The notes under the pieces were generated by a model. That model saw nothing but the letters and a program-made list of their open reading frames with translations, was not told the origin of the DNA and made no database searches. DNA of 63,386 nt, counting the filler, from Reclinomonas americana ATCC 50394 (lineage: Eukaryota): NCBI GenBank assembly GCA_048213135.1. It is 6 parts of 4 records of this genome, joined end to end, with 100 filler letters (N's around TTAATTAATTAA, not from the genome) between each part and the next. Parts side by side here need not be neighbours in the genome. Positions count along the whole stretch, not along the records: positions 5,550 to 33,921 come from PS015267.1; 5 more parts are not named here. One strand, 5' to 3'. This document shows, piece by piece, positions 11,641 through 23,351 of the stretch. The position numbers were made by a program, and so were the translations under genes. Position 1 is the first letter of the stretch. Every line of letters starts with the position of its first letter.

Positions 11641-14600
11641 ATGAGTGCAGCACAGGGCAGTGACAGGTATGTGTGTGTTTGTTTCTGGCTTTCTCTTCTC
11701 CTCTCTGACTCTCTCTGACAATTGTTGCTCGTCGACAGTCAACAACAGAGGAGACTGAGATCCTGGGAGATGGCGAGTGATGGCGATGTGAAGGCACTGC
11801 GCGAGTTGGTGGCGCGTGAGGGCGCACACGCACTGCTGAAGAAAGAGGAGATGTTTTACGGCTGCTCGGCATTTCACTCACCGCTCGTGAAGGACATCTC
11901 TCTGTGTTGGAGTACTTGTGGGAGGAGAGTGGTGTCGGGCCACAACTCGCACGAATGGTCGCCGACAATGGCTACACGCCACTGATGGTGGCTGCCGGCT
12001 ACGGGCATCTGCAAGTGGTGGAGTGGTTGCTGGCCGATGAGCGACGATGTCCGCCGGAGATGGTGCGGGCGGTCGACAGCAATCAGGAGACTGCACTGCA
12101 TGATGCTGCCTATAACGGCCACGAGGCCATTGTGCGACTCCTCGCCACTCGCTTCCCCGATCTCATTCCCATGCTCAGGAAGGATGGCAAGACCGCAGCT
12201 GATAGGGCACGTGACAAGGGCAAGCAACAAGTGGCCGAGTTGCTCGACCGCCTCGCTGCGGAGCAACGAGCACCCCCACCACGCCAACAACCCCCACAAC
12301 CTCCCTCTCCGCCTCCACCACCACAGCCACCAGCAGGTGAGAACTCATTTTCGTGTTGCATACACTCCTCCTTGCATCTTTCTCTGCTTGTGTTCACCCT
12401 GCAGAAAAACACGCAGAGCCAGCACGCCCACAACAACGACAGCCACAAATCTCCCTTCCCTCTTCACCACCACCACCACGAGCAGCAGGTGAGATCTCCG
12501 TGTCGTCTTGTGCAGATGGCTGATTGGTTTTCTTTGCCACTCACACTCCTCCATGCGTGTTTCTTTGTTTGCGAGAACACGCAGTCCCGCCACGCCAGGT
12601 GAGAGACTGTTTTATTATGCTTCTGGTCCACTTGTTCCTCATCATACTTGCGTTTGGTGACTGTTCGCTTTCTCATTCTGCTTCTGCGCAGGCAACTGAA
12701 GACACCGCCGTGATGGCACGCCAGCTTGCCGACAGAGACGCACTCATCGCCCACCTCCAGCGCGATCTCGCCGCGTCACAGCGGGAGCGACAGCAGCAGC
12801 AGCGAGAATGGGATCGACGGCGACGAGAGCACGAAGATATCGTGACCCAACTGCAGCAAGCAAGCGCTGAGTTGCAAGAGGCGCATGCCAAAGATCAGCA
12901 ACAAGTTGCACAGCTTCGCGTTGAGGTGGAGCGACGGAACGCTACCATTGCGCAACTGCAACAAGCGAACGGACAGTTGCAGCAATCTGATGCGCAGAGT
13001 CGGCAGCAAGTCGCGCAACTGCAGCGAGCCCATGCAGAATGGCAGCAAGCTCAAGCTCAGCTGGAATCCCAGCTGACTGTGGCATTGCGTGACAAGGACG
13101 AGTTTGCTGCTCAGCTGACCACAGTGCAGCAGCAACTGGAAGAGAAAGACCGACTTGTTTCGCAGCTTCGACAGGAGCTCCTCCTCGCCCAAGGTCTTTG
13201 CATCTATCTCTTGTTGTCCTCGTGCTTCTCCAACCATTCATTTGTTCTCCATCTATCCCTTCCGTCTCATTCCACAGTCGACACTGCCGTGCAGCGCTTC
13301 GAGTGGCCGGAGATTGTGCACTCCACTGACTCATTCTCCCCACGCCTCAAAGTGGGCGAGGGTGGCCAGGGAGCCGTCTTCATCACCCTGCTTCGCGAGA
13401 TGCATGTGGCCATCAAGGTGCTCGATCCCGATGCACCGTGGACGATGGAGTCGTTTGAGAGTGAGGTCTGTCTGTCCTTCTCTCCTTTTCATTCCCTCTC
13501 TCTTTCTCCTCATTCTTCTCTCCTTTTCTCGCAAGGTGGCCACTCTCGGACGCCTGCGCAATCGCCGCATTGTGCCTCTTGTCGGTTATTCGGTGGGCGA
13601 CGACAAGGCTCGCTGTCTCGTGTACAAGGCCCTGCAGTGCGTGTTCCATCTCTCCACTCCTCCCTTCCTCCATCGTCGTCTCACTGTGAAACGCACACAG
13701 AGTTCCCAACCTGGAGGATCTATTGCTGCTTCGCACCAGTCGTGCACCACTGTCTGTCGTGCAACGAGTGCAGATTGGTCTCGGATTGGCTGAGGCTGTA
13801 GCGTTCTTGCACAAGGTGTGTGTTCGATAAAGATGGCAGTCTTTGTTCTCACCAGTCGTCTCGCCTTCTGTTTCGCACTCTTTTTCTCTTTGCTGCAGTG
13901 TTCTATCTCTTTTGTAATCTCAATCTCCCGTGACCCCTACCGTGTTCTGTCTCTTCCGTTCCCTTCTGATATGTATGGAAGGCGTCATTCCCTCTCTTTT
14001 TCTGTCTTGCGGTTCTTTATCGCTTTTTGTGTCTCAGTCTTACGTGACCCCTACGGTTTCCTGCTGTGTTCTGTCTCTTCTGGTCCCTTCCGATATGTAT
14101 GCAAGTCGTCATTCCTTCTGTTTCGCACTCTCCCTCTCTATGCTGCAGTTTTGAATATCTTTTGTTCTCAGTCTCCCGCATCTCTCTGCTTCCTCCTATG
14201 TACTGTCCTCTTTTTTCCTTGTGATATTTATACATGTACTGTGCCTCTCATTTCCTCACTCCCTCGCAGAATGAGGTGGTCCATCGCGACATCAAACCCG
14301 CCAATGTGCTCCTCGATCACCGTTTCGAGCCGTGCCTCGGTGACTTTGGGATTGCGAGGTCGATTGCCGGCGGCAAGGTTTGTTGCCTTGCATCCGTTCT
14401 CTCTGTCGTGATCTCTCACTTTTTCCTTGTGCAGTCAACCGCTGTTGCCGGTACGCCTGACTACTTGGATCCACTGGCCCTCCGCGCCCGGCGTCCACTG
14501 CCCAAGCACGATGTGTACAGCATGGGCGTGGTGCTGGTGCAGCTGGTCACTGGCAAACCCGTGGTGACGGTAGGCGAGTGGTCTCTGGAGTGGGACGACT

Positions 14601-14796
14601 CGCCCGACTCATTGCGCGTCATGGAGCTCGTGGACAGCAGCGAGGGAGTGGTGTGGACACCGCGCATCGCGGAAGCCATGTTTGCCATTGCATGCGATGC
14701 ATGAGTCTGAGACGTGATCGACCGACGGCACAGGAGGTGCTCGAGGTTATGCGGGCGGTGCGTGAGGCGTGTGGCAACTTTACGCTGGAACTCTAA
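11641..14796 (+). pseudogene. ANK-CC-kinase copy 2 with two apparent 1-nt frameshifts
   Basis: Highly similar to copy 1. Frameshift at ~11880 in the ankyrin exon (tttcactcaccgct vs ttttactttgccgct) and at ~14690 in the kinase C-lobe (gccattgcatg vs gtcattggcatg). The second could be a sequencing error. Confidence 0.72.
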
Positions 14797-15125
14797 GTGA
14801 AAGCAAGCTTGCAAAGAAGGAGAGGGAGGGGGTTAGAGCTCAGCATTGAGAGTGTCGAGTGTATCATCAGTGTGAGAGACGAACGGGTGTGGAAATGTGA
14901 GACGAAAATGATGGGAGATGTGCGAAAGTCAGTAAGTGAGTTGGATTCAGTGAGGAAATGAGTGTGTGAGAGAGTGAAAGAGCGAGAGTGACTCTTGCAC
15001 TGATTGATTGATCGATCAGAATGCATGAGAGTTGTCGCTGAATCACTCTCTCTCTCTCTCTCTCTCTTACTCCGTGTGTATGTATGTGTGTATGTTTGTT
15101 TGTGTGTGTAAGAGTGACACAGCAC

Positions 15126-15188
15126 TCTGTACACATATCCATAAGTTCCCTCTCCGAGAAGGATCTTGCTCTTGATGTATCTCTCCAT
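15126..15188 (-). pseudogene. Orphan first exon of a CDK/CMGC-like kinase (MERYIKSKILLGEGTYGYVYR), head-to-head with ANK copy 3
   Basis: 63-nt ATG-initiated exon ending at a GT donor; GEGTYG Gly-loop typical of CDKs; no catalytic exons follow. Confidence 0.6.
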
Positions 15189-15392
15189 TGCTTCGTTGTT
15201 GTGGAGAGAGAGAGAGAGAGCACAGACAGAGAGGCACACTCTCTCACGCGGGTGTGCGTCTGTCTCTCGCTCACTCAGTGGCGCGTGTGACTGAGAGATA
15301 TCTAGATGTCCTGTGCGTGTCATGAATCGCGAGTTGTGAGCTTCATAAACACGAACGCACGCACTCTCGCACACAGACACAGAGAGAGAGAG

Positions 15393-18300
15393 ATGGGTGC
15401 AGCACAGGGCAGTGACAGGTGTGTGTGGCTCTCCCTTCTCCTCTCTGACTCTCTCTGACAATTGTTGCTCGTTGGGCAGTCAACAACAGAGGAGGAAAGC
15501 ATGTGAGATGGGAAGGGATGGCGATGTGAAGGCACTGCGCGAGTTGGTGGCGCGTGAGGGCGCACAGACACTGTTGAAGAGAGAGGAGATGAATGGTTGC
15601 AGCTCGGCATTTTACTATGCCGCTTGGTGTGGCCATCTCTCTGTGTTGGAGTATCTGTGGGAGGAGAGTGGCGTCGGGCCACAACTCGCACAAATAGTCG
15701 CCGACGGTGGCTGGACGCCACTGATGGGGGCTGCCTCCCATGGGCAACTGCAAGTGGTGGAGTGGTTGCTGGCCGATGAGCGACGATGTCCGCCGGAGAT
15801 GGTGCGGGCGGTCGACATTGATCAGTTTACTGCGCTGCATATTGCTGCCGCGAATGGTCGCGAAGCCATTGTGCGACTCCTCGCCACGCGCTTTCCCGAC
15901 CTCATTCCCATGGTCAACAAGGAGGGCAAGACAGCGGCTCAGAGGGCACGCGACCAGGGCAAGCGACAAGTTGCCGAGTTGCTCGACCGTCTTGCTGCGG
16001 AGCAACGAGCACCTCCACCACGCCAACAACAACCACAACCTACCTCTCCGCCTCCACCACCACAGCCACCAGCAGGTGAGATCTCATTTCTTCTGGCACA
16101 CACTCCTTGCGTCTTTCTTTGTTTGTGTTCACCCTGCGAAAACAAGCAGAGCCTGCACGCCCACAACAACGACAGCCACAAATATCCCATCTCTCTTCAT
16201 CACCACCACCACCACGAGCAGCTGGTGAGATGTCAATGTCGTCTTGAACAGACGATTGATTGGTGTTCTTCGCCACTCACACTCCTCCATTCGTGTTTCT
16301 TTGTTTGTAATGTCTTGCAAAAACACGCAGTTCCGCCGCGCCAGGTGAGAGACTGTGCCATCTCGCTTGTGCTTTCGCATTGTTCATCATGTTTGCGCTC
16401 TGCATCTGCGCAGGTGATTGACGACGCCGCCGACAAGGACACACTCATCACACAACTCCAGCGCGATCTCGCCGCCGCACAGCAGGAGCGACAACAGCAG
16501 CACCAAGAGTGGGATCGATGGCGACGAGAGCACGAAGATATCGTGGCTCAACTGCAGCAAGCCAACGCTGAGCTGCGTGAGGCGCATGCCAAAGATCAGC
16601 GACAAGTTGCACAGCTGCGCGTTGCACCATTGCGCAACTGCAGCAAGCGAACGGACAGTTGCAGCAATCTGATGCGCAGAGTCGGCAGCAACTGCAGCGA
16701 GCCCATGCAGAATGGCATCAAGCTCAAGCTCAGCTGGAATCCCAGCTGACTGTGGCATTGCGTGACAAGGACGAGTTTGCTGCTCAGCTGATTATCGTGC
16801 AGCAGCAACTGGAAGAGAAAGACCGACTTGTGTCGCAGCTCCGACAGGAGCTCCTCCTCGCCCAAGGTCTTTGCATCTCTCTTGTTGTCCTCGTGCTTCT
16901 CCAACCATGCATTTTTTCTCCATCTTTCCCACCACCTCATGCCACAGTCGACACTTCCGTGCAGCGCTTCGAGTGGCCGGAGATTGTGCACGCTACCGAC
17001 TCATTCTCTCCCCGCCTCAAGGTCGGCGAAGGTGGCCAGGGCGCCGTGTTCATCACTCTGCTTCGTGAGATGCATGTGGCCATCAAGGTGCTCGATCCAG
17101 AGGCACCGTGGACGATGGAGTCATTCGAGAGTGAGGTCTGTCTGTCCTTCTCTCCTTTATTCCCTGTCTTTCTCCTCATCCTTCTCTCCGTTTCTCACAA
17201 GGTGGCCACTCTCGGACGTCTGCGTGACCGTCGCATTGTGCCTCTTGTCGGCTACTCTGTGGGCGACGACAAGGCTCGCTGTCTCGTGTACAAGGCCCTG
17301 CAGTGCGTGCCCCGCACCTCTCTCTCTTTTTCTCCATCGTCGTCTCAGTGTGAACGCGCGCAGAGTTCCAAACTTGGAGGACCTCCTGCTGCTTCGTACA
17401 GGTCGCGCACCACTCTCTGTCTTGCAACGAGTGCAGATTGGTCTCGGATTGGCCGAGGCTGTGGCTTTCTTGCACAAGGTGTGTGTTCGATAAAGATGGC
17501 AGTCTTTGTTTCTCACCAATCGTCGTGCCTTCTGTTTCGCACTCTCTTTCTTTCTCTATGCTGCAGTTTCATATCTCTTTTGTTTTATCTCAGTCTCTCG
17601 TGACCCCTACGGTTTACTGCTGTGTTCTGTCTCTTCCGTACCCTTGTGATATGTATGCAAGTCGTCATTCTTCTGTTTCGCTTTCTTTTTCTCTATGCTG
17701 CACTTTTGTATATCTTTTGTTGCCTCAGTCTTCCGTGACCCCTACCGTGTTCTGTCTCTTCCGTTCCCTTCCGATACTCATGCACGACGTCATTCCTTCT
17801 GCTTCGCACTCTCTTTCTCTATGCTGCAGTTTCATATCTCTTTTGTTATCTCTGTCTCTCGTGACTGCTACGGTATCCTGCTGTGTTCTGTCTTTTCCGT
17901 TCCCTTGTGATATGCATGCAAGTCGCCATTCCTTCTGTTTTGCACTTTCTTTCTCTATGCTGCAGTTTTGTTCTCAGTCTCCCGCTTCTCCCTGTTTCCT
18001 CCTATGTACTGTCCTCTTTTTCTCTTCTGATTTGTATGCATGTACTGTGCCTCTCATTTCACCACTCCCTCGCAGAATGAGGTGGTGCACCGCGACATCA
18101 AACCCGCCAATGTGCTCCTCGATCACCGTTTCGAGCCGTGTCTCGGTGACTTTGGCATTGCGCGGTCGATTGCCGGTGGCAAGGTGCACTTCTCTCCTAT
18201 CTCGTCTTCCTAGATCTCTCCTTTCGATCTCTTACCTGCACAAGACAACCCCCGCCGCTGGCACACCCGACTACTTGGATCCGCTGGCCCTCCGCGCCCG

Positions 18301-18607
18301 GCGTCCACTGCCCAAGCACGATGTGTACAGCATGGGCGTGGTGTTGGTGCAGTTGGTCACGGGCAAGCCGGTGGTGACGGTGGGCGAGTGGTCGCTGGAG
18401 TGGGACGACTCGCCAGCCTCGTTGCGCGTCATGGAGCTGGTGGACAGCAGTGAGGGAGTGGAGTGGACACCGCGCATCGCTGAAGCCATGTTCGCTATCG
18501 GCATGCGATGCATGAGTCTGCGACGTGATCGGCCGACGGCACAGGAGGTGCTCGAGGTGATGCGGGCGGTGCGCGAGGCGTGTGGCAACTTTACGCTGGA
18601 ACTCTAA
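15393..18607 (+). pseudogene. ANK-CC-kinase copy 3; net 19-nt deletion in the coiled-coil exon disconnects the kinase (predicted ANK-CC truncation, stop at 16749)
   Basis: cgcgttg-c-accattgcg at ~16624 vs cgcgttg-aggtggagcgacgggacgct-accattgcg in copy 1; ankyrin and kinase exons are otherwise open. Confidence 0.75.
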
Positions 18608-19149: not shown

Positions 19150-20179
19150 ATGGGTGCAACACAGGGCAGTGACAGGTGTGTGTGTGTGTCTTTGTTTCTG
19201 GCTTTATCGTCTCCTCTCTGACGTTGTTACTCGTTGGGCAGCCAACAACAGAGGAAGGAAGCATGGGAGATGGCGAAGGATGGCGATGTGAAGGCATTGC
19301 GCGAGTTGGTGGCGAGTGAGGGCGCGGAGACGCTGCTGAAGAGAGAGGAGATGTATGATGGTGGTTGGTCGGCATTTTACTATGCCGCTCAGCAAGGCCA
19401 TCTCTCTGTGTTGGAGTATCTGTGGGAGGAGAGTGGTATCGGGCCACAACTCGCACAAATGGTCGACGACGTTGGTTGGACGCCACTGATGTCGGCTGCC
19501 TACCATGGGCAACTGCATGTGGTGGAGTGGCTGCTTGCCGATGACCGACGATGTCCGCCGGAGATGGTGCGGGTGGTCGACAAAGGAGACCAGTGGACTG
19601 CGCTGAACTGCGCTGCTGTGAATGGTCACGAAGCCATTGTGCAACTCCTCGCCACGCGCTTTCCCGACCTCATTCCCATGGTCAACGAGGATGGCAAGAC
19701 CGCGGCTGATAGGGCACGCGACAGAAGCAAGCAGCAAGTGGCCGAGTTGCTCGACCGCCTCGCTGCGGAGCAACGAGCACCTCCACCACGCCAACAACCC
19801 CCACAACCTCCCTCTCCGCCTCCACCACCACAGCCACCAGCAGGTAAGATCTCATTTTCGTGTTGCTGCACACTCCGCCTTGCGTGTTTCTCTGCTTGTG
19901 TTCACCCTGCAAAATATACGCAGAGCCAGCACGCACACAGCAGCAACAGCCACCAATCTCCCCTCCCTCTTCACCACCACCACAAGCAGCAGGTGAGATT
20001 TCATATTTGTCTTGTGCAGATGGTTGATGTGTGCTTTTCTCCTCTCTCACACTCTCCTCGATGTTTGCTTCGCTTACTTTTCGTCTTGCAGAAAATACAT
20101 CGCCATCACGCCAGGTGAGACACAGTGTCGTCTCGCTTGCGCATGTTTGCTTCTCATCGTGCGTGTTCTCTGACTCCCA

Positions 20180-20210
<31 letters not shown>

Positions 20211-22995
20211 TGCTCTGCGCAGGTGATTGACGATGCCACCGACAAGGACGCACTCATCACCGAACTCCAGCGCGATCTCGCCGCGGCACAGCAGGAGCGA
20301 CAGCAGCAGCAGCGAGAATGGGATCGGCAACGACGAGAGCTCGAAGATATCGTGGCTCAACTACAGCGAACCAATGCTGAGCAGAGTCACACCTTAGCTG
20401 AACAGCAACAACGAATCGATGAACTGCAGCAAGCTCAAGCTAAGAGCCAGCAACAAGTCACGGAGCTGCAGACCAACCTCACCGCTGAACGGCACAGGGT
20501 GCGCAACATGGAAGGCCAACTTAGCGCACTCTTCAACATGGACTTTCTCAGGTTTCTTCGTGACTCATTCTCCCTGTTTTGTTCTTGTCGTGAGTCATCT
20601 CACTCTTGGCTGCACAGTGACCGCCGTCCAATCTTGATGCTCACGGAAGTCGTGCACGAGATTATTCCCCTGGCACTCGGCTCGTTGCTGCAACAACTCA
20701 TCGCGGACTTCTTCCCTGCCGAGTTCGACATTGAGCAATTTTGCCTTCCAGCTCCATCATCGAGGTGCTGAGGGAGGGACAGTCTTGTATGTGTTGTATC
20801 TTCTGCGCTCATGCTGCCTAACAGATATTGCCGAATGACTCTGGACAGGCGCGGCAACATTCGCATGCGCTCCGTCGAGCTATTCTCGTCCAACTACGAG
20901 ACAATTCGAGAGTTCAAGCGGAGTGGAGTGACCACGGGCATGGATGTGTCGCTGTTGTGCACGCTGCTGTTGTACACAACTTTCGTTCCCGTTGCTGCTT
21001 GCCGTGATGCGGATCTACGGAAGGGTTCTGTCCGTCTCGATCCTGTTACAAACGAAGACCGTGTGGCTGTGCGAATGCTCGCTGACCCCGCCAAGGTGTG
21101 CTCTCTGCTTGTGCCATCATAACTGACGAGTGTTCTCAAGGCCAGTGTGCTTTGCAGATTCGAGCCGTGGAGAACTTGCGAGACGTGCGCCATCGTGTGT
21201 CTCACCTGGCCCGTCTCTCTGCACTCGAAGACGCAGAGTATGTGAGCGTTATGCGGCTGGTTCGCGACTCGCTCCACACGCTGTTCCCCGACGGGCAGCA
21301 CGAGAGCATTCGTCTTCTGTTCCAAGCATACGAGAGTTACGGCTGCAGCATGGCCATTATGTGTCCTCATTCTCTCATCTACACTCCGTCGGCACAGATG
21401 TGTGTCGCATCAATGTGACGGCCGAGCTGGTGACGGAGAGAGCAGCCAGATTCGCTATTCGCGCCCCAGTTGTGTCGTTCTCTGACTTGACGACCTCGAG
21501 ACAACTTGACGGCGGTGTGATTATCTGTGTATGCCTGCATCTGCATGAACAATCAGAAGCTCATCGTGTCCGTTTTCCATCGCAGGTCAAAATGCTGTCT
21601 TCCATGCCTCTCTCCGCCTCGGCGGTGTGTCACAGACCGTGGCTTACAAGCGATACTTGGTCAGGAGGCAAGCTCGAGATGCACAATCGGCGGACTGGAG
21701 ACGCGTTCATGCGTGCTTCGAGAACGAACACTCTCTGCTGATGCAACTCGAGTTGCGTGCTTGGCGATGATCGCTGCACTTGCATGCTGACCGTCGTCGC
21801 TCATGCGCCTGCACACAGTCACCCGCACATTGTGAAACTGATGGCCGTGTGCAACGACGACCCGAGTGGTCTTGGTCTCGTGCTCGAATATGTCGGTGGC
21901 GAGGAGGGCATTGCCGAGACGCTGCACGACCTGGTGAAGGACGAGCATATGGCGACTACGCACCTGCTCAATTTGCTTGTACAGGTCGCGTCGGCGGTGG
22001 TGCACATGCACTCGCGACGAGTGGTACATCGTGATCTCAAGCCGCAGAGTTGCGTCTTGGAGAGCGCAATGGGAGAGAACGAGACTGCAAGAGAAGAGGA
22101 TTACGAGATGCTGACGCAAGAGAAGATGAGAGGAAGAGGGAGAGAAAGCAGGCGAGTGAGGTCAGTCTGCTCGTGCAAGTACCATCACCGGTGGTGCGCA
22201 CTCGCGTCGAGTGCTGCATCGTGATCTCAAGCCACAGAAATTCGTTTTGGAGCGGGTTATGCGAGAATGCAAGACTACAAGAGAGAAGGGCTATGGCACG
22301 TTGATGGAAGAGAGTGGATGTGTGAGAGAGAGAGGGCAGTGGAACCTCTTCCAGGTCAATGTGCTTCTTTATCTGCTGACCCGTTTCTCTCTCTGCATGG
22401 TCACAGACATACTCATCAGCGAGGACCGACTCGTGGCCAAGGTGTGCGACTTTGGAGAGGCCAAGATTCACGGCACTCTTGGCAAGATGCAATCGAACCA
22501 CGGCACGGCAGCGTATGCTGCGCCGGAGGCCATGTTGGATCAGGAGGTGAATTGGTGACATTCTCATCTCTTGCTGAGCAGCTGTGAGAGTGGTGTTCAC
22601 ACATGCTTCGTTCACCACTCGCAGTACGATGAAAGGGCGGATGTGTATGGACTTGGCTCGCTGCTCTGGTTCATCGCCACTCGTCAGGAACCGTTCAGCG
22701 GAGTGTCGTTGCCTGTTATCATGCGCCACATGCATGACGGCATTCCACCCGCCGATCTTGAGGATGAGGGTGTGCGGGCTGCCGTGCTGGAGGACGTTCG
22801 CAATCTGATTCGGCAGTGCTGGGTTGCGTTCTGGTCAAGTAGATCGTGTTGCTGGAAGAGGTGTACGCTTATTGCGCGTGTGTGATGCAGAGGCCACAAG
22901 CAACCCGCGTGTCGGCAGCGTATGTACTGGACGAGCTGAGGCGCTTAAGCGAGGCTGCAGAGGGAGGAGCAGGACCGGCTGGGCCTTCACAGTGA
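19150..22995 (+). CDS. ANK-CC-HEPN-kinase copy 4: ankyrin repeats, coiled coil, putative DZIP3-like HEPN domain, TKL-like kinase; apparently intact
   Basis: Phase-compatible GT-AG model from MGATQGSD to ...GPAGPSQ*. HEPN-like MDVSLLCTLL ... ENLRDVRHRVSH (RxxxxH at 21188-21205). Kinase motifs VAYK, HPHIVKL, HRDLKPQNIL, VCDFG, GTAAYAAPE, DVYGLGSLLW. Confidence 0.8.
22160..22330 (+). repeat. Degenerate local duplicate of the HRDLKPQ exon end and adjacent intron, lying inside an intron of copy 4
   Basis: catcgtgatctcaagccacaga at ~22217 repeats catcgtgatctcaagccgcaga at ~22027, and the flanks align; the donor GT is lost in the duplicate. Confidence 0.75.
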
Positions 22996-23040: not shown

Positions 23041-23245
23041 AGATGCATGTGTGGGTCGTATGCTGCCTGCTCCTGTGTCTGTGGTACGTGTGCGGCTGAT
23101 GAAGACTTTTCTCATCTTCCCACTGACTCACTCTTTTGTTGATCCGCAGGTGCGTGGATCATCGAAACGCTCGTCGTCCCATCGCCGAGCAGATGGCGAA
23201 CGAGCTGCGCGACCTGGCGGCGATGTCGGTGCGACGGTGTTCGAG
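23041..23245 (+). pseudogene. Stranded remnant of the copy-5-type kinase C-terminal/RING exon
   Basis: RCVDHRNARRPIAEQMANELRDLAAMSVRR matches copy 5 RCVDQRDARRPTAEQLANELRDLAALSARR; upstream gatgcatgtgtgggtcgtatgctgcctgctcc matches the copy 5 DARVGRVWPAP coding sequence; the RING is absent. Confidence 0.8.
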
Positions 23246-23351
23246 ACACGTGCGGACATCAAGTGCTGGGAGGAAGCAGAGAATGCACCATACGAGCGAG
23301 ATGGGGCAGTGCTATCAACATTTATGAAAGCACTGCTATATTTCCCCTTTC

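What the first reader, a model, noticed from the sequence alone, without database searches (positions are those of the whole stretch)
20620..22995. Copy 4 combines ankyrins, a putative HEPN RNase and a kinase: RNase L-like domain set in a different order
Seen: after the coiled coil, three in-frame exons encode a ~190-aa, probably helical, region with MDVSLLCTLL and ENLRDVRHRVSH (R-H-x3-H at 21188-21205), followed by a kinase unrelated to those in copies 1-3. Established: HEPN nucleases use an R[NDH]xxxH motif and act as dimers; the DZIP3-like HEPN family has an upstream D-hydrophobic-[ST]-LL motif; RNase L is ankyrin-pseudokinase-KEN/HEPN. Inference: ligand binding by the variable ankyrins plus coiled-coil dimerisation could switch on an RNase, as a convergent analogue of RNase L.
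Basis: partly seen in the sequence, partly recalled or inferred. Interest (0 to 1): 0.85.

Follow-up and report, generated by a model that had tools for sequence, protein, structure and literature searches.

The report
Ankyrin–coiled-coil–possible HEPN–kinase chimeric gene
One member of a tandem family of ankyrin and kinase genes in an unidentified eukaryote carries an extra 199-residue region with the signature motif of HEPN RNA-cutting domains, but whether it really has that fold could not be tested here.

Summary
Copy 4 is a clean 13-exon GT-AG gene (19270-22995, +, 852 aa): ankyrin repeats, a Pro/Gln linker, a 109-aa coiled coil, a 199-aa unassigned region (exons 5-7, 20618-21335) and a Ser/Thr kinase that keeps the Lys, HRD, DFG and APE motifs. 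Exons 6 and 7 cannot be skipped without frameshifting the kinase.

The HEPN reading is plausible but unproven.
- **For:** the motif has the canonical form. In a fragment model it lies at the end of a helix before a loop, as published for HEPN. Both motifs in that order and spacing arise in 0.016% of shuffles. A language-model look-alike search of exon 7 independently returned mollusc clusters carrying HEPN_DZIP3 and DUF4559.
- **Against:** there is no Pfam, PADLOC or NCBIfam match for any of the three exons. No credible homologue turned up among 1.84 billion proteins. No fold evidence exists, because the spliced domain could not be given to the folding or profile tools.

The RNase L analogy (ligand-gated dimeric RNase) is inference only. 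Paralogues carry IRAK-like kinases or kinase-RING on the same ankyrin and coiled-coil module, and a decayed RING exon lies just after copy 4. That points to effector swapping in an immunity-like gene array.

The parts
19270..19843 (+). Exon 1 of copy 4: start codon, ankyrin repeats and the start of the Pro/Gln-rich linker
   Evidence: Pfam Ank_2 E 2.8e-21, with Ank_4, Ank, Ank_3 and Ank_5 also matching. It is 67-81% identical to five other ankyrin exons in the window.
19924..20114 (+). Exons 2 (19924-19992) and 3 (20092-20114): Pro/Gln/Ser-rich linker
   Evidence: GT-AG boundaries that keep the frame. Read from the sequence only.
20223..20551 (+). Exon 4: 109-aa coiled-coil segment
   Evidence: It has no Pro and one Gly, and is rich in Gln, Ala, Leu, Glu and Arg. 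The best heptad register has 14 of 26 a/d positions hydrophobic, against an overall hydrophobic fraction of 0.29. It gives weak matches to many coiled-coil Pfam families. It is 41-59% identical to the same segment of the other copies.
20618..20764 (+). Exon 5: first 49 residues of the unassigned region; possible first helix
   Evidence: Gene model and best codon-usage frame. No family match. Intron 4 upstream (66 nt) is in frame without a stop.
20825..21095 (+). Exon 6: about 90 residues including MDVSLLCTLL (from 20940); candidate helix 2 carrying the acidic residue, followed by an insert
   Evidence: Sequence. No family match at E <= 10. No credible homologue. The AlphaFold2 fragment model is uninformative at pLDDT 39.
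21158..21335 (+). Exon 7: 59 residues with R-H-x3-H at 21188-21205; candidate helices 3 and 4 of a HEPN-like bundle
   Evidence: AlphaFold2 fragment model with pLDDT 73.7 and helices 2-19, 25-42 and 49-56; the motif is at residues 11-16. ESM Atlas look-alikes include DUF4559 (0.87) and HEPN_DZIP3 clusters (0.86 and 0.76). No Pfam hit. Foldseek found nothing specific.
21398..22995 (+). Exons 8-13 (21398-21526, 21586-21751, 21819-22048, 22407-22546, 22625-22822, 22891-22995): short linker, then a Ser/Thr protein kinase and the stop codon
   Evidence: Pfam Pkinase on exons 10, 11 and 12 (E 2.6e-13, 2e-6 and 0.049). VAYK Lys at residue 595, HRDLKPQN at 699, DFG at 720 and APE at 744; the glycine loop is non-canonical. 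The nearest solved kinases are generic Ser/Thr kinases.
22162..22313 (+). Inside intron 10: a diverged tandem duplicate of the 3' end of exon 10 plus the start of the intron
   Evidence: Direct repeats 21968-22006 / 22162-22200 (72%) and 22008-22123 / 22198-22313 (75%). The copy lacks a GT at the position of the donor site.
23146..23270 (+). Decayed relic of a kinase-end plus RING exon, just downstream of the copy-4 stop codon
   Evidence: It aligns with the last exon of copy 5, acceptor site included. The two are near-identical over the first ~95 nt; a 20-nt gap and loss of similarity follow. No RING match remains.

Best explanation
**What the gene is.** Copy 4 is an intact chimeric member of a tandem family of ankyrin and coiled-coil genes. 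The family's usual C-terminal effector (an IRAK-like kinase, or a kinase plus RING) has been replaced. In its place are a 199-residue helical region and a different, apparently active, Ser/Thr kinase.

**What the 199-residue region most likely is.** It is most likely a divergent HEPN-superfamily domain of the DZIP3/CXorf38-like kind. On this reading:
- exon 5 gives helix 1;
- the MDVSLL segment gives helix 2 with the acidic residue (D421);
- residues ~438-471 are the variable insert;
- exon 7 gives helix 3, ending in R482-H483-x3-H487, and helix 4.

**Proposed working.** This is inferred, not shown.
- The coiled coil holds two chains together, so that two HEPN-like domains can form the composite metal-independent RNase site typical of HEPN enzymes.
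- The ankyrin repeats bind a ligand or partner.
- The kinase either regulates the nuclease by autophosphorylation or acts as a second output.
- The protein would be one effector variant in an immunity- or conflict-type sensor family.

**Shown:** the gene structure, the motifs, the ankyrin, coiled-coil and kinase identities, and the paralogue architecture.
**Inferred:** the HEPN fold, dimerisation, RNase activity and regulation.
For: **Gene structure.**
- The ORF is intact across 13 exons with canonical splice sites, and the mid exons are required to keep the kinase in frame.

**Motif.**
- It has the published canonical form: R, then a polar H, then x3, then H (PMC3710099 passages).
- It sits at the end of a helix, before the loop to a long second helix, in the exon-7 model at pLDDT 73.7. 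This matches the published position.
- An acidic residue in a hydrophobic segment lies 61 residues upstream. That is compatible with the helix-2 acid plus a helix-2/3 insert described in the paper.
- The joint motif arrangement occurs in 0.0155% of 200,000 shuffles.

**Look-alikes.**
- ESM Atlas on exon 7 gave recognition 2421, above the tool's mark of 2300.
- The best family-bearing look-alikes were DUF4559 (0.87, 176 of 256 features) and HEPN_DZIP3 clusters (0.86 with 177 features, and 0.76).

**Context.**
- DZIP3-like HEPN domains are reported fused to ankyrin, RING, NACHT and Death domains. They are expanded in Nematostella, oyster and Capsaspora (PMC3710099 Table 1 passage) and in cnidarian NLRs (PMC8260672 passage).
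- The paralogues here carry IRAK4-like kinases and a RING finger.
Against: **Profile searches.**
- 0 of 3 mid exons, and 0 of 2 enclosing ORFs, match any Pfam family at E <= 10. That includes PF18738, PF15112, PF05168 and the KEN domain.
- PADLOC matched 0 of 4 pieces and NCBIfam 0 of 3.

**Homologue searches.**
- phmmer with exon 6 against 1.84 billion representatives gave 3 hits. All 3 are internally repetitive proteins (Big_7, HEAT and SPMAP1-like repeats) that scored through 6-11 stretches, so 0 of 3 are credible.
- Word-indexed searches found none of 113 candidates for exon 6 and none of 11 for exon 7.
- Metagenome and viral contig scans found no relative.

**Look-alike caveats.**
- The top two Atlas look-alikes are unnamed small viral proteins (0.91 and 0.90).
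- Only 3 of the 10 best family-bearing hits share a family. By the tool's own calibration this means the family is 'probably wrong'.

**Structure.**
- The exon-6 model is unusable at pLDDT 39.
- Foldseek on the exon-7 model found only generic helical bundles, none at E <= 0.001.

**Other.**
- There is no Ex3[KR] motif.
- No conservation data exist, because the region has no paralogue in the window.
Confidence: 0.45

Rival explanations
1. The 199-residue region is a lineage-specific helical linker or regulatory extension of the kinase, with no nuclease function. The R-H-x3-H and DVSLL strings are chance matches to short degenerate patterns.
For: There is no profile, sequence or fold match to any HEPN family. 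R[NDH]xxxH alone occurs in 6.1% of shuffles and 60 times in the window's six-frame translation. The Atlas hits below 0.9 are called leads only, and the best hits are unnamed helical miniproteins. PHROGs gives a weak match of exon 7 to a 55-residue family of unknown function (E 0.037).
Against: The joint motif arrangement is rare in shuffles at 0.0155%. The motif sits at the helix end, as in HEPN domains. Among roughly 24,700 Pfam families, the family-bearing look-alikes were precisely the HEPN_DZIP3 and DUF4559 clusters.
Confidence: 0.33
2. The region is another all-helical adaptor or executioner module that commonly precedes kinases in immune signalling. Examples are a Death-fold domain (as in IRAK/Pelle) or a four-helix bundle plus brace (as in MLKL). 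It would act by protein-protein assembly rather than RNA cleavage.
For: The paralogues carry IRAK4-like kinases, and IRAK-family kinases classically carry an N-terminal Death domain (established knowledge, recalled). Exon 7 is helical. Foldseek returns only generic helical bundles.
Against: There is no Pfam Death, CARD, DED or other match at E <= 10 for any exon. Copy 4's kinase is not IRAK-like or MLKL-like; its exon 10 is closest to generic Ser/Thr kinases. The Atlas look-alikes named HEPN-type families and not Death-fold families.
Confidence: 0.08
3. Copy 4 is a recent chimeric rearrangement product that is not expressed, or not functional, as annotated here. On this reading the 852-codon frame is a young fusion on its way to decay.
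For: A decayed RING exon lies just after the stop codon. There is a diverged tandem duplication inside intron 10. The glycine loop is degenerate. No RNA data are available.
Against: All 12 introns have GT-AG boundaries. The frame is open through 13 exons. The coding frame scores best of six frames in exons 5-8. The kinase catalytic motifs are intact.
Confidence: 0.1

Closest known systems
DZIP3/hRUL138-like HEPN domain proteins (Pfam PF18738) of animals and Capsaspora
   Same: - It is a candidate Rx4-6H domain inside a multidomain protein with ankyrin repeats, in a lineage-specific tandem expansion.
- A RING finger is present in a paralogue and as a relic next to copy 4. DZIP3 itself combines HEPN with RING (PMC3710099 Table 1 passage).
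- Exon 7's look-alikes include PF18738 clusters.
   Different: - There is no HMM match exon by exon.
[quoted passage not shown]
- The source organism is not any species with deposited proteins. The best ankyrin hits were only 27-38% identical.
RNase L and Ire1 (kinase or pseudokinase followed by the KEN/HEPN RNase)
   Same: - It has the same set of domain types as RNase L: ankyrin repeats, a kinase-fold domain and a candidate HEPN.
- HEPN RNases of this kind act through the Rx4-6H motif (PMC3710099 passages).
   Different: - The order is reversed. The candidate HEPN lies before the kinase, and a coiled coil is inserted.
- There is no KEN-domain match.
- The kinase keeps Lys, HRD, DFG and APE, so it is not an obvious pseudokinase.
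- Any resemblance would be convergent and not a sign of membership.
IRAK/Pelle-type immune kinases with variable N-terminal adaptors
   Same: The paralogues (copies 1-3) join the same ankyrin and coiled-coil module to a kinase whose closest solved relative is IRAK4 (E 1.6e-13). This suggests a signalling family built on induced proximity.
   Different: Copy 4's own kinase is of another type. No Death domain is detected anywhere in the family.

Membership tests
HEPN superfamily | Rx4-6H motif with a polar residue (N, D or H) right after the R | tested here: met
   R482-H483-R-V-S-H487, at 21188-21205. The definition comes from PMC3710099 passages.
HEPN superfamily | [quoted passage not shown] | tested here: inconclusive
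   In the model of exon 7 alone (pLDDT 73.7) the motif occupies residues 11-16 of helix 2-19, followed by a loop at 20-24 and a helix at 25-42. This is consistent, but it is a fragment folded out of context.
HEPN superfamily | Four-helix up-down bundle, often with an insert between helices 2 and 3 | not testable with these tools
   The domain is split over three exons. The spliced sequence could not be handed to the folding or fold-search tools. Exon 6 alone gave pLDDT 39. The complex predictor was unavailable.
HEPN superfamily | Conserved acidic residue in helix 2 (often Ex3[KR]) | tested here: inconclusive
   D421 lies in a hydrophobic segment 61 residues upstream. No Ex3[KR] motif is present, and the helix assignment is unverified.
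DZIP3/hRUL138-like HEPN (PF18738) | Match to the family profile at or above the Pfam gathering score | tested here: not met
   0 of 3 exons and 0 of 2 enclosing ORFs matched at E <= 10. The test was exon by exon only; the spliced domain was not scanned.
DZIP3/hRUL138-like HEPN (PF18738) | Detectable sequence relatives that carry the family | tested here: not met
   There are no credible relatives of exon 6 or exon 7. The only link is a look-alike lead from ESM Atlas (0.86 and 0.76).
RNase L / Ire1 (KEN) | KEN RNase domain directly C-terminal to the kinase or pseudokinase | tested here: not met
   The candidate domain lies N-terminal to the kinase. The gene ends 34 residues after the kinase's last exon junction. 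There is no KEN match.
RNase L / Ire1 (KEN) | N-terminal ankyrin repeats (RNase L) | tested here: met
   Ank_2 E 2.8e-21 on exon 1.
Eukaryotic protein kinase | Pkinase profile match and the catalytic Lys, HRD, DFG and APE motifs | tested here: met
   Pkinase E 2.6e-13 on exon 10 and 2e-6 on exon 11. The motifs are at residues 595, 699, 720 and 744. The glycine loop is non-canonical.

The most novel reading that the evidence does not exclude
A unicellular or early-branching eukaryote has independently built an RNase L-like innate sensor. Variable ankyrin repeats sense a ligand. A coiled coil pairs two chains. A DZIP3-like HEPN RNase is the executioner, and an active kinase wired after it gates or amplifies the response. 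It would be one cassette in a tandem array that swaps effectors (IRAK-like kinase, kinase-RING, HEPN-kinase) on a constant sensor module.
Probability: 0.18. Interest if true: 0.75.

Novelty: new variant of a known kind. Interest (0 to 1): 0.42.

Why it matters
**If the region is a working HEPN RNase.** It would be the first ankyrin, coiled-coil, HEPN, kinase arrangement that I could find described.
- The HEPN survey's list of DZIP3 fusions has no kinase (PMC3710099 Table 1 passage).
- My three literature searches turned up no such architecture.

It would also be a second, independent coupling of a kinase fold to a HEPN nuclease outside RNase L and Ire1. That would make the question of how kinase-fold domains gate HEPN dimers testable in a new system.

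**Independently of the HEPN question.** The locus is a compact example of effector swapping in a tandem array:
- the same ankyrin and coiled-coil front end is joined to three different back ends;
- a relic exon marks the replacement.

**If the region is only a linker.** The finding is then an ordinary lineage-specific kinase paralogue.

Tried and rejected
**Profile libraries, exon by exon.**
- Pfam at E <= 1 and E <= 10, PADLOC and NCBIfam gave nothing for the mid exons.
- PHROGs gave three weak hits for exon 7, all of unknown function (best E 0.037).

**Homologue searches.**
- Exon 6 against longer proteins: 0 of 113 candidates.
- Exon 7: 0 of 11 at E <= 10.
- Ankyrin exon: 9 generic ankyrin proteins at 27-38% identity, and 0 of 9 carry PF18738.
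- phmmer of exon 6 against 1.84 billion representatives gave 3 hits. All were rejected as artefacts of repeat proteins after reading them and scanning them with Pfam.
- Metagenome contigs with exon 6 and viral contigs with exon 7 gave no relatives.

**PDB sequence search.** Exons 6 and 7 gave only chance-level rows (E 0.7-1.7).

**ESM Atlas.** Exon 6 gave no usable hit.

**Structure.**
- Exon 6 alone was unusable.
- Foldseek on the exon-7 model gave generic bundles only.
- The complex predictor, which I wanted in order to co-fold the three exon products, was not available.

**Resources that were not available.**
- No whole genome is held.
- Sequencing runs: none was listed, and no RNA holder was listed.
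- The HEPN paper's supplement held here is only an index page without alignments. The family alignments it points to may bear on the D-h-[ST]-LL claim, and I could not see them.

**Crude local check.** A Chou-Fasman-style helix estimate was too noisy to use.

**Readings rejected.**
- That the mid region is shared with the other copies: tblastn finds it only in copy 4.
- That exons 5-7 could be an optional cassette: only exon 5 can be skipped in frame.
Full report
**What is there.**

The window is eukaryotic nuclear DNA with short GT-AG introns (59-358 nt). No whole genome, earlier notes or sequencing runs were available for it.

Reading the region and listing stop-to-stop frames let me build a gene model, which a script verified:
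- It has 13 exons on the + strand: 19270-19843, 19924-19992, 20092-20114, 20223-20551, 20618-20764, 20825-21095, 21158-21335, 21398-21526, 21586-21751, 21819-22048, 22407-22546, 22625-22822 and 22891-22995.
- All 12 introns start with GT and end with AG.
- The joined frame is open for 852 codons and ends at the TGA at 22993-22995.

Pfam confirms ankyrin repeats on exon 1 (Ank_2, E 2.8e-21). It also confirms a protein kinase on exons 10-12 (Pkinase, E 2.6e-13, 2e-6 and 0.049).

Exon 4 is a 109-residue segment without Pro. It is rich in Gln, Ala, Leu, Glu and Arg and has a clear heptad register, with 14 of 26 a/d positions hydrophobic.

Between the coiled coil and the kinase lie exons 5-7. They encode residues 332-530, which is 199 aa.

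**Checking the observation.**

MDVSLL starts at 20940, and R-H-R-V-S-H is at 21188-21205.
- The frames chosen for exons 5-8 each have the best codon-usage score of the six frames.
- Skipping exon 6, exon 7, exons 6+7 or exons 5+6+7 shifts the frame and gives an early stop. The kinase can therefore only be translated through these exons.
- Exon 5 alone could be skipped in frame, and intron 4 could be retained in frame.
- In 200,000 shuffles of the 199 residues, the two motifs in that order and 30-90 residues apart appeared in 0.0155%. The patterns were picked after the fact, so this is an upper bound on significance.
- tblastn shows six ankyrin and coiled-coil genes in the window, at about 8184, 11770, 15508 and 19270 on the + strand and at 31160 and 33085 on the - strand. 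The 199-aa region occurs only in copy 4.

**Is it a HEPN domain?**

The domain is split across three exons, and the tools that fold or search remotely take only unspliced window translations. All remote tests therefore had to be done exon by exon, and that limits their power.

*Negative results*
- No Pfam family matched at E <= 10 for exons 5, 6, 7 and 8 or for the two enclosing ORFs.
- Nothing matched in PADLOC or NCBIfam.
- PHROGs gave only weak hits of unknown function for exon 7.
- phmmer of exon 6 against 1.84 billion representatives returned three hits. All three are internally repetitive proteins that matched through 6-11 stretches (Ig-like, HEAT and a sperm-protein repeat). I reject them.
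- Word-indexed searches with exon 6 and exon 7 found nothing. Metagenome and viral contig scans also found nothing.
- PDB sequence searches gave chance-level rows.
- AlphaFold2 on exon 6 alone failed, with pLDDT 39.
- Foldseek on the exon-7 model returned generic helical bundles, none at E <= 0.001.

*Positive results*
- The motif has the canonical form described by Anantharaman et al. 2013: Rx4-6H, with the residue after R 'mostly N, D or H'. I read the Table 1 and text passages of PMC3710099.
- In the AlphaFold2 model of exon 7 alone (pLDDT 73.7) the motif occupies residues 11-16 of a helix spanning 2-19. A loop and an 18-residue helix follow.
- The paper also describes a conserved acidic residue in helix 2 and frequent inserts between helices 2 and 3. 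D421, in the hydrophobic MDVSLL segment 61 residues upstream, would fit that layout. I could not verify the helix itself.
- The ESM Atlas feature search with exon 7 had a recognition value of 2421, above the tool's mark of 2300. After two unnamed viral miniprotein clusters (0.91 and 0.90), it listed three mollusc clusters:
  - one with DUF4559 (0.87, 176 shared features);
  - one with PF18738 HEPN_DZIP3 (0.86, 177 shared features);
  - a larger one with PF18738 on 55% and DUF4559 on 12% of its members (0.76).
- By the tool's own calibration, hits under 0.9 are leads only, and '3 of ten' family agreement is a poor sign. Even so, this unsupervised search named the very family proposed from the motif.
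- From memory and unchecked, DUF4559 is the CXorf38 family, which the 2013 paper also classes as HEPN.

*Weighing the two sides.* I put the probability that the region is a HEPN-superfamily domain at about one half. The probability that it works as an RNase L-like gated nuclease is clearly lower.

**Context.**

The same ankyrin and coiled-coil front end is attached to different back ends in the window:
- Copies 1-3 have a kinase whose closest solved relative is IRAK4 (E 1.6e-13).
- Copy 5, on the - strand, ends in a kinase plus a C3HC4 RING finger (zf-C3HC4_3, E 6e-11).
- In copy 6, no kinase was found in the frames examined.
- Copy 4's kinase is only 28-48% identical to the others over short stretches. 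Its exon 10 resembles generic Ser/Thr kinases.

Immediately after copy 4's stop codon, at about 23146-23270, lies a relic of the copy-5-type last exon:
- It includes the acceptor site and is near-identical over the first ~95 nt.
- A 20-nt gap and decay follow.
- No RING match is left.

This shows that copy 4 once had the family's kinase-RING end, and that the mid region plus the new kinase replaced it. A constant sensor and oligomerisation module with swapped effectors in a tandem expansion is the pattern described for immunity and conflict proteins. HEPN domains are among the recurring effectors in those proteins (PMC8195603 passages; PMC8260672 passage; PMC3710099).

**Mechanism.**

The best-supported reading has three parts:
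- The coiled coil holds at least two chains together.
- The candidate HEPN domains next to it could then pair. HEPN RNases use the R and H of the motif as a metal-independent active site.
- The ankyrin repeats would provide recognition, and the kinase would provide regulation or a second output.

None of this was tested. The glycine loop of the kinase is non-canonical, while Lys595, HRD, DFG and APE are present. Activity is therefore likely but not certain.

**Comparison with known systems.**

- **RNase L/Ire1.** It works like these only by analogy. The order is reversed, there is no KEN match, and the kinase is not an evident pseudokinase.
- **DZIP3-like HEPN family.** Membership fails the one profile test I could run (exon by exon). 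I therefore do not file it as a member. It is at most a divergent relative.
- **Kinase fusions.** A kinase fusion is not among the DZIP3-type architectures listed in 2013. My three literature searches showed none. They cover open-access text only, and I read only passages of three papers.

**Verdict.**

The gene structure is real and interesting, and the chimeric origin is well supported. The HEPN assignment is plausible but unproven, and the RNase L-like mechanism is speculative.

The decisive tests are a fold prediction and a profile search on the spliced 199 residues. Both are simple, but neither could be run here.

Noticed in passing
window 8076-18604 (+) and 28114-33154 (-): This is a tandem and inverted array of six ankyrin plus coiled-coil genes. 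The ankyrin exons are 67-81% identical to copy 4. Copies 1-3 end in IRAK4-like kinases, and copy 5 (31160 to 28114, - strand) ends in a kinase plus a C3HC4 RING.
   Followed up: partly
window 31300-33154 (-): Copy 6 has ankyrin repeats (33085-32597) and a coiled coil (32262-32071). No kinase was found before the next gene starts, and the 127-aa frame at 31596-31976 has no Pfam match. It may be truncated, or it may carry an unrecognised end.
   Followed up: partly
window 23146-23270 (+): A decayed copy of the kinase-end plus RING exon of copy 5 lies just after copy 4's stop codon. It marks the replacement of the original 3' half of the gene.
   Followed up: yes
window 21968-22313 (+): There is a diverged tandem duplication (72-75% identity, about 190-nt spacing) of the end of exon 10 and the start of intron 10. 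It includes a second in-frame HRDLKPQ-coding stretch that has no GT donor.
   Followed up: partly
window 5450-5549, 33922-34021, 52800-52899, 59613-59712, 61916-62015: Five places show the same odd pattern: two runs of exactly 44 N separated by 12 bases. There are also larger N runs of 227-613 bases, and 3830 N in the window in all. I did not examine whether these are assembly gaps or masked stretches.
   Followed up: no
window 6049-7538, 25074-25748, 36548-37732, 41294-47569, 60897-61499: The neighbouring genes by Pfam on open frames are a TRAPP subunit, an RRM protein (- strand), a RasGEF, a class I/II-type PI3-kinase (C2, PIK and catalytic domains) and an M76 peptidase. This gene set is typical of a eukaryote with Ras/PI3K signalling. 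The organism was not identified.
   Followed up: no
(proteins P0001-P0003): A 90-residue query drew E-values down to 1e-16 from proteins made of 6-11 near-identical repeats, because weak per-repeat scores add up. Hits of that kind to short exon queries need to be read before they are believed.
   Followed up: yes
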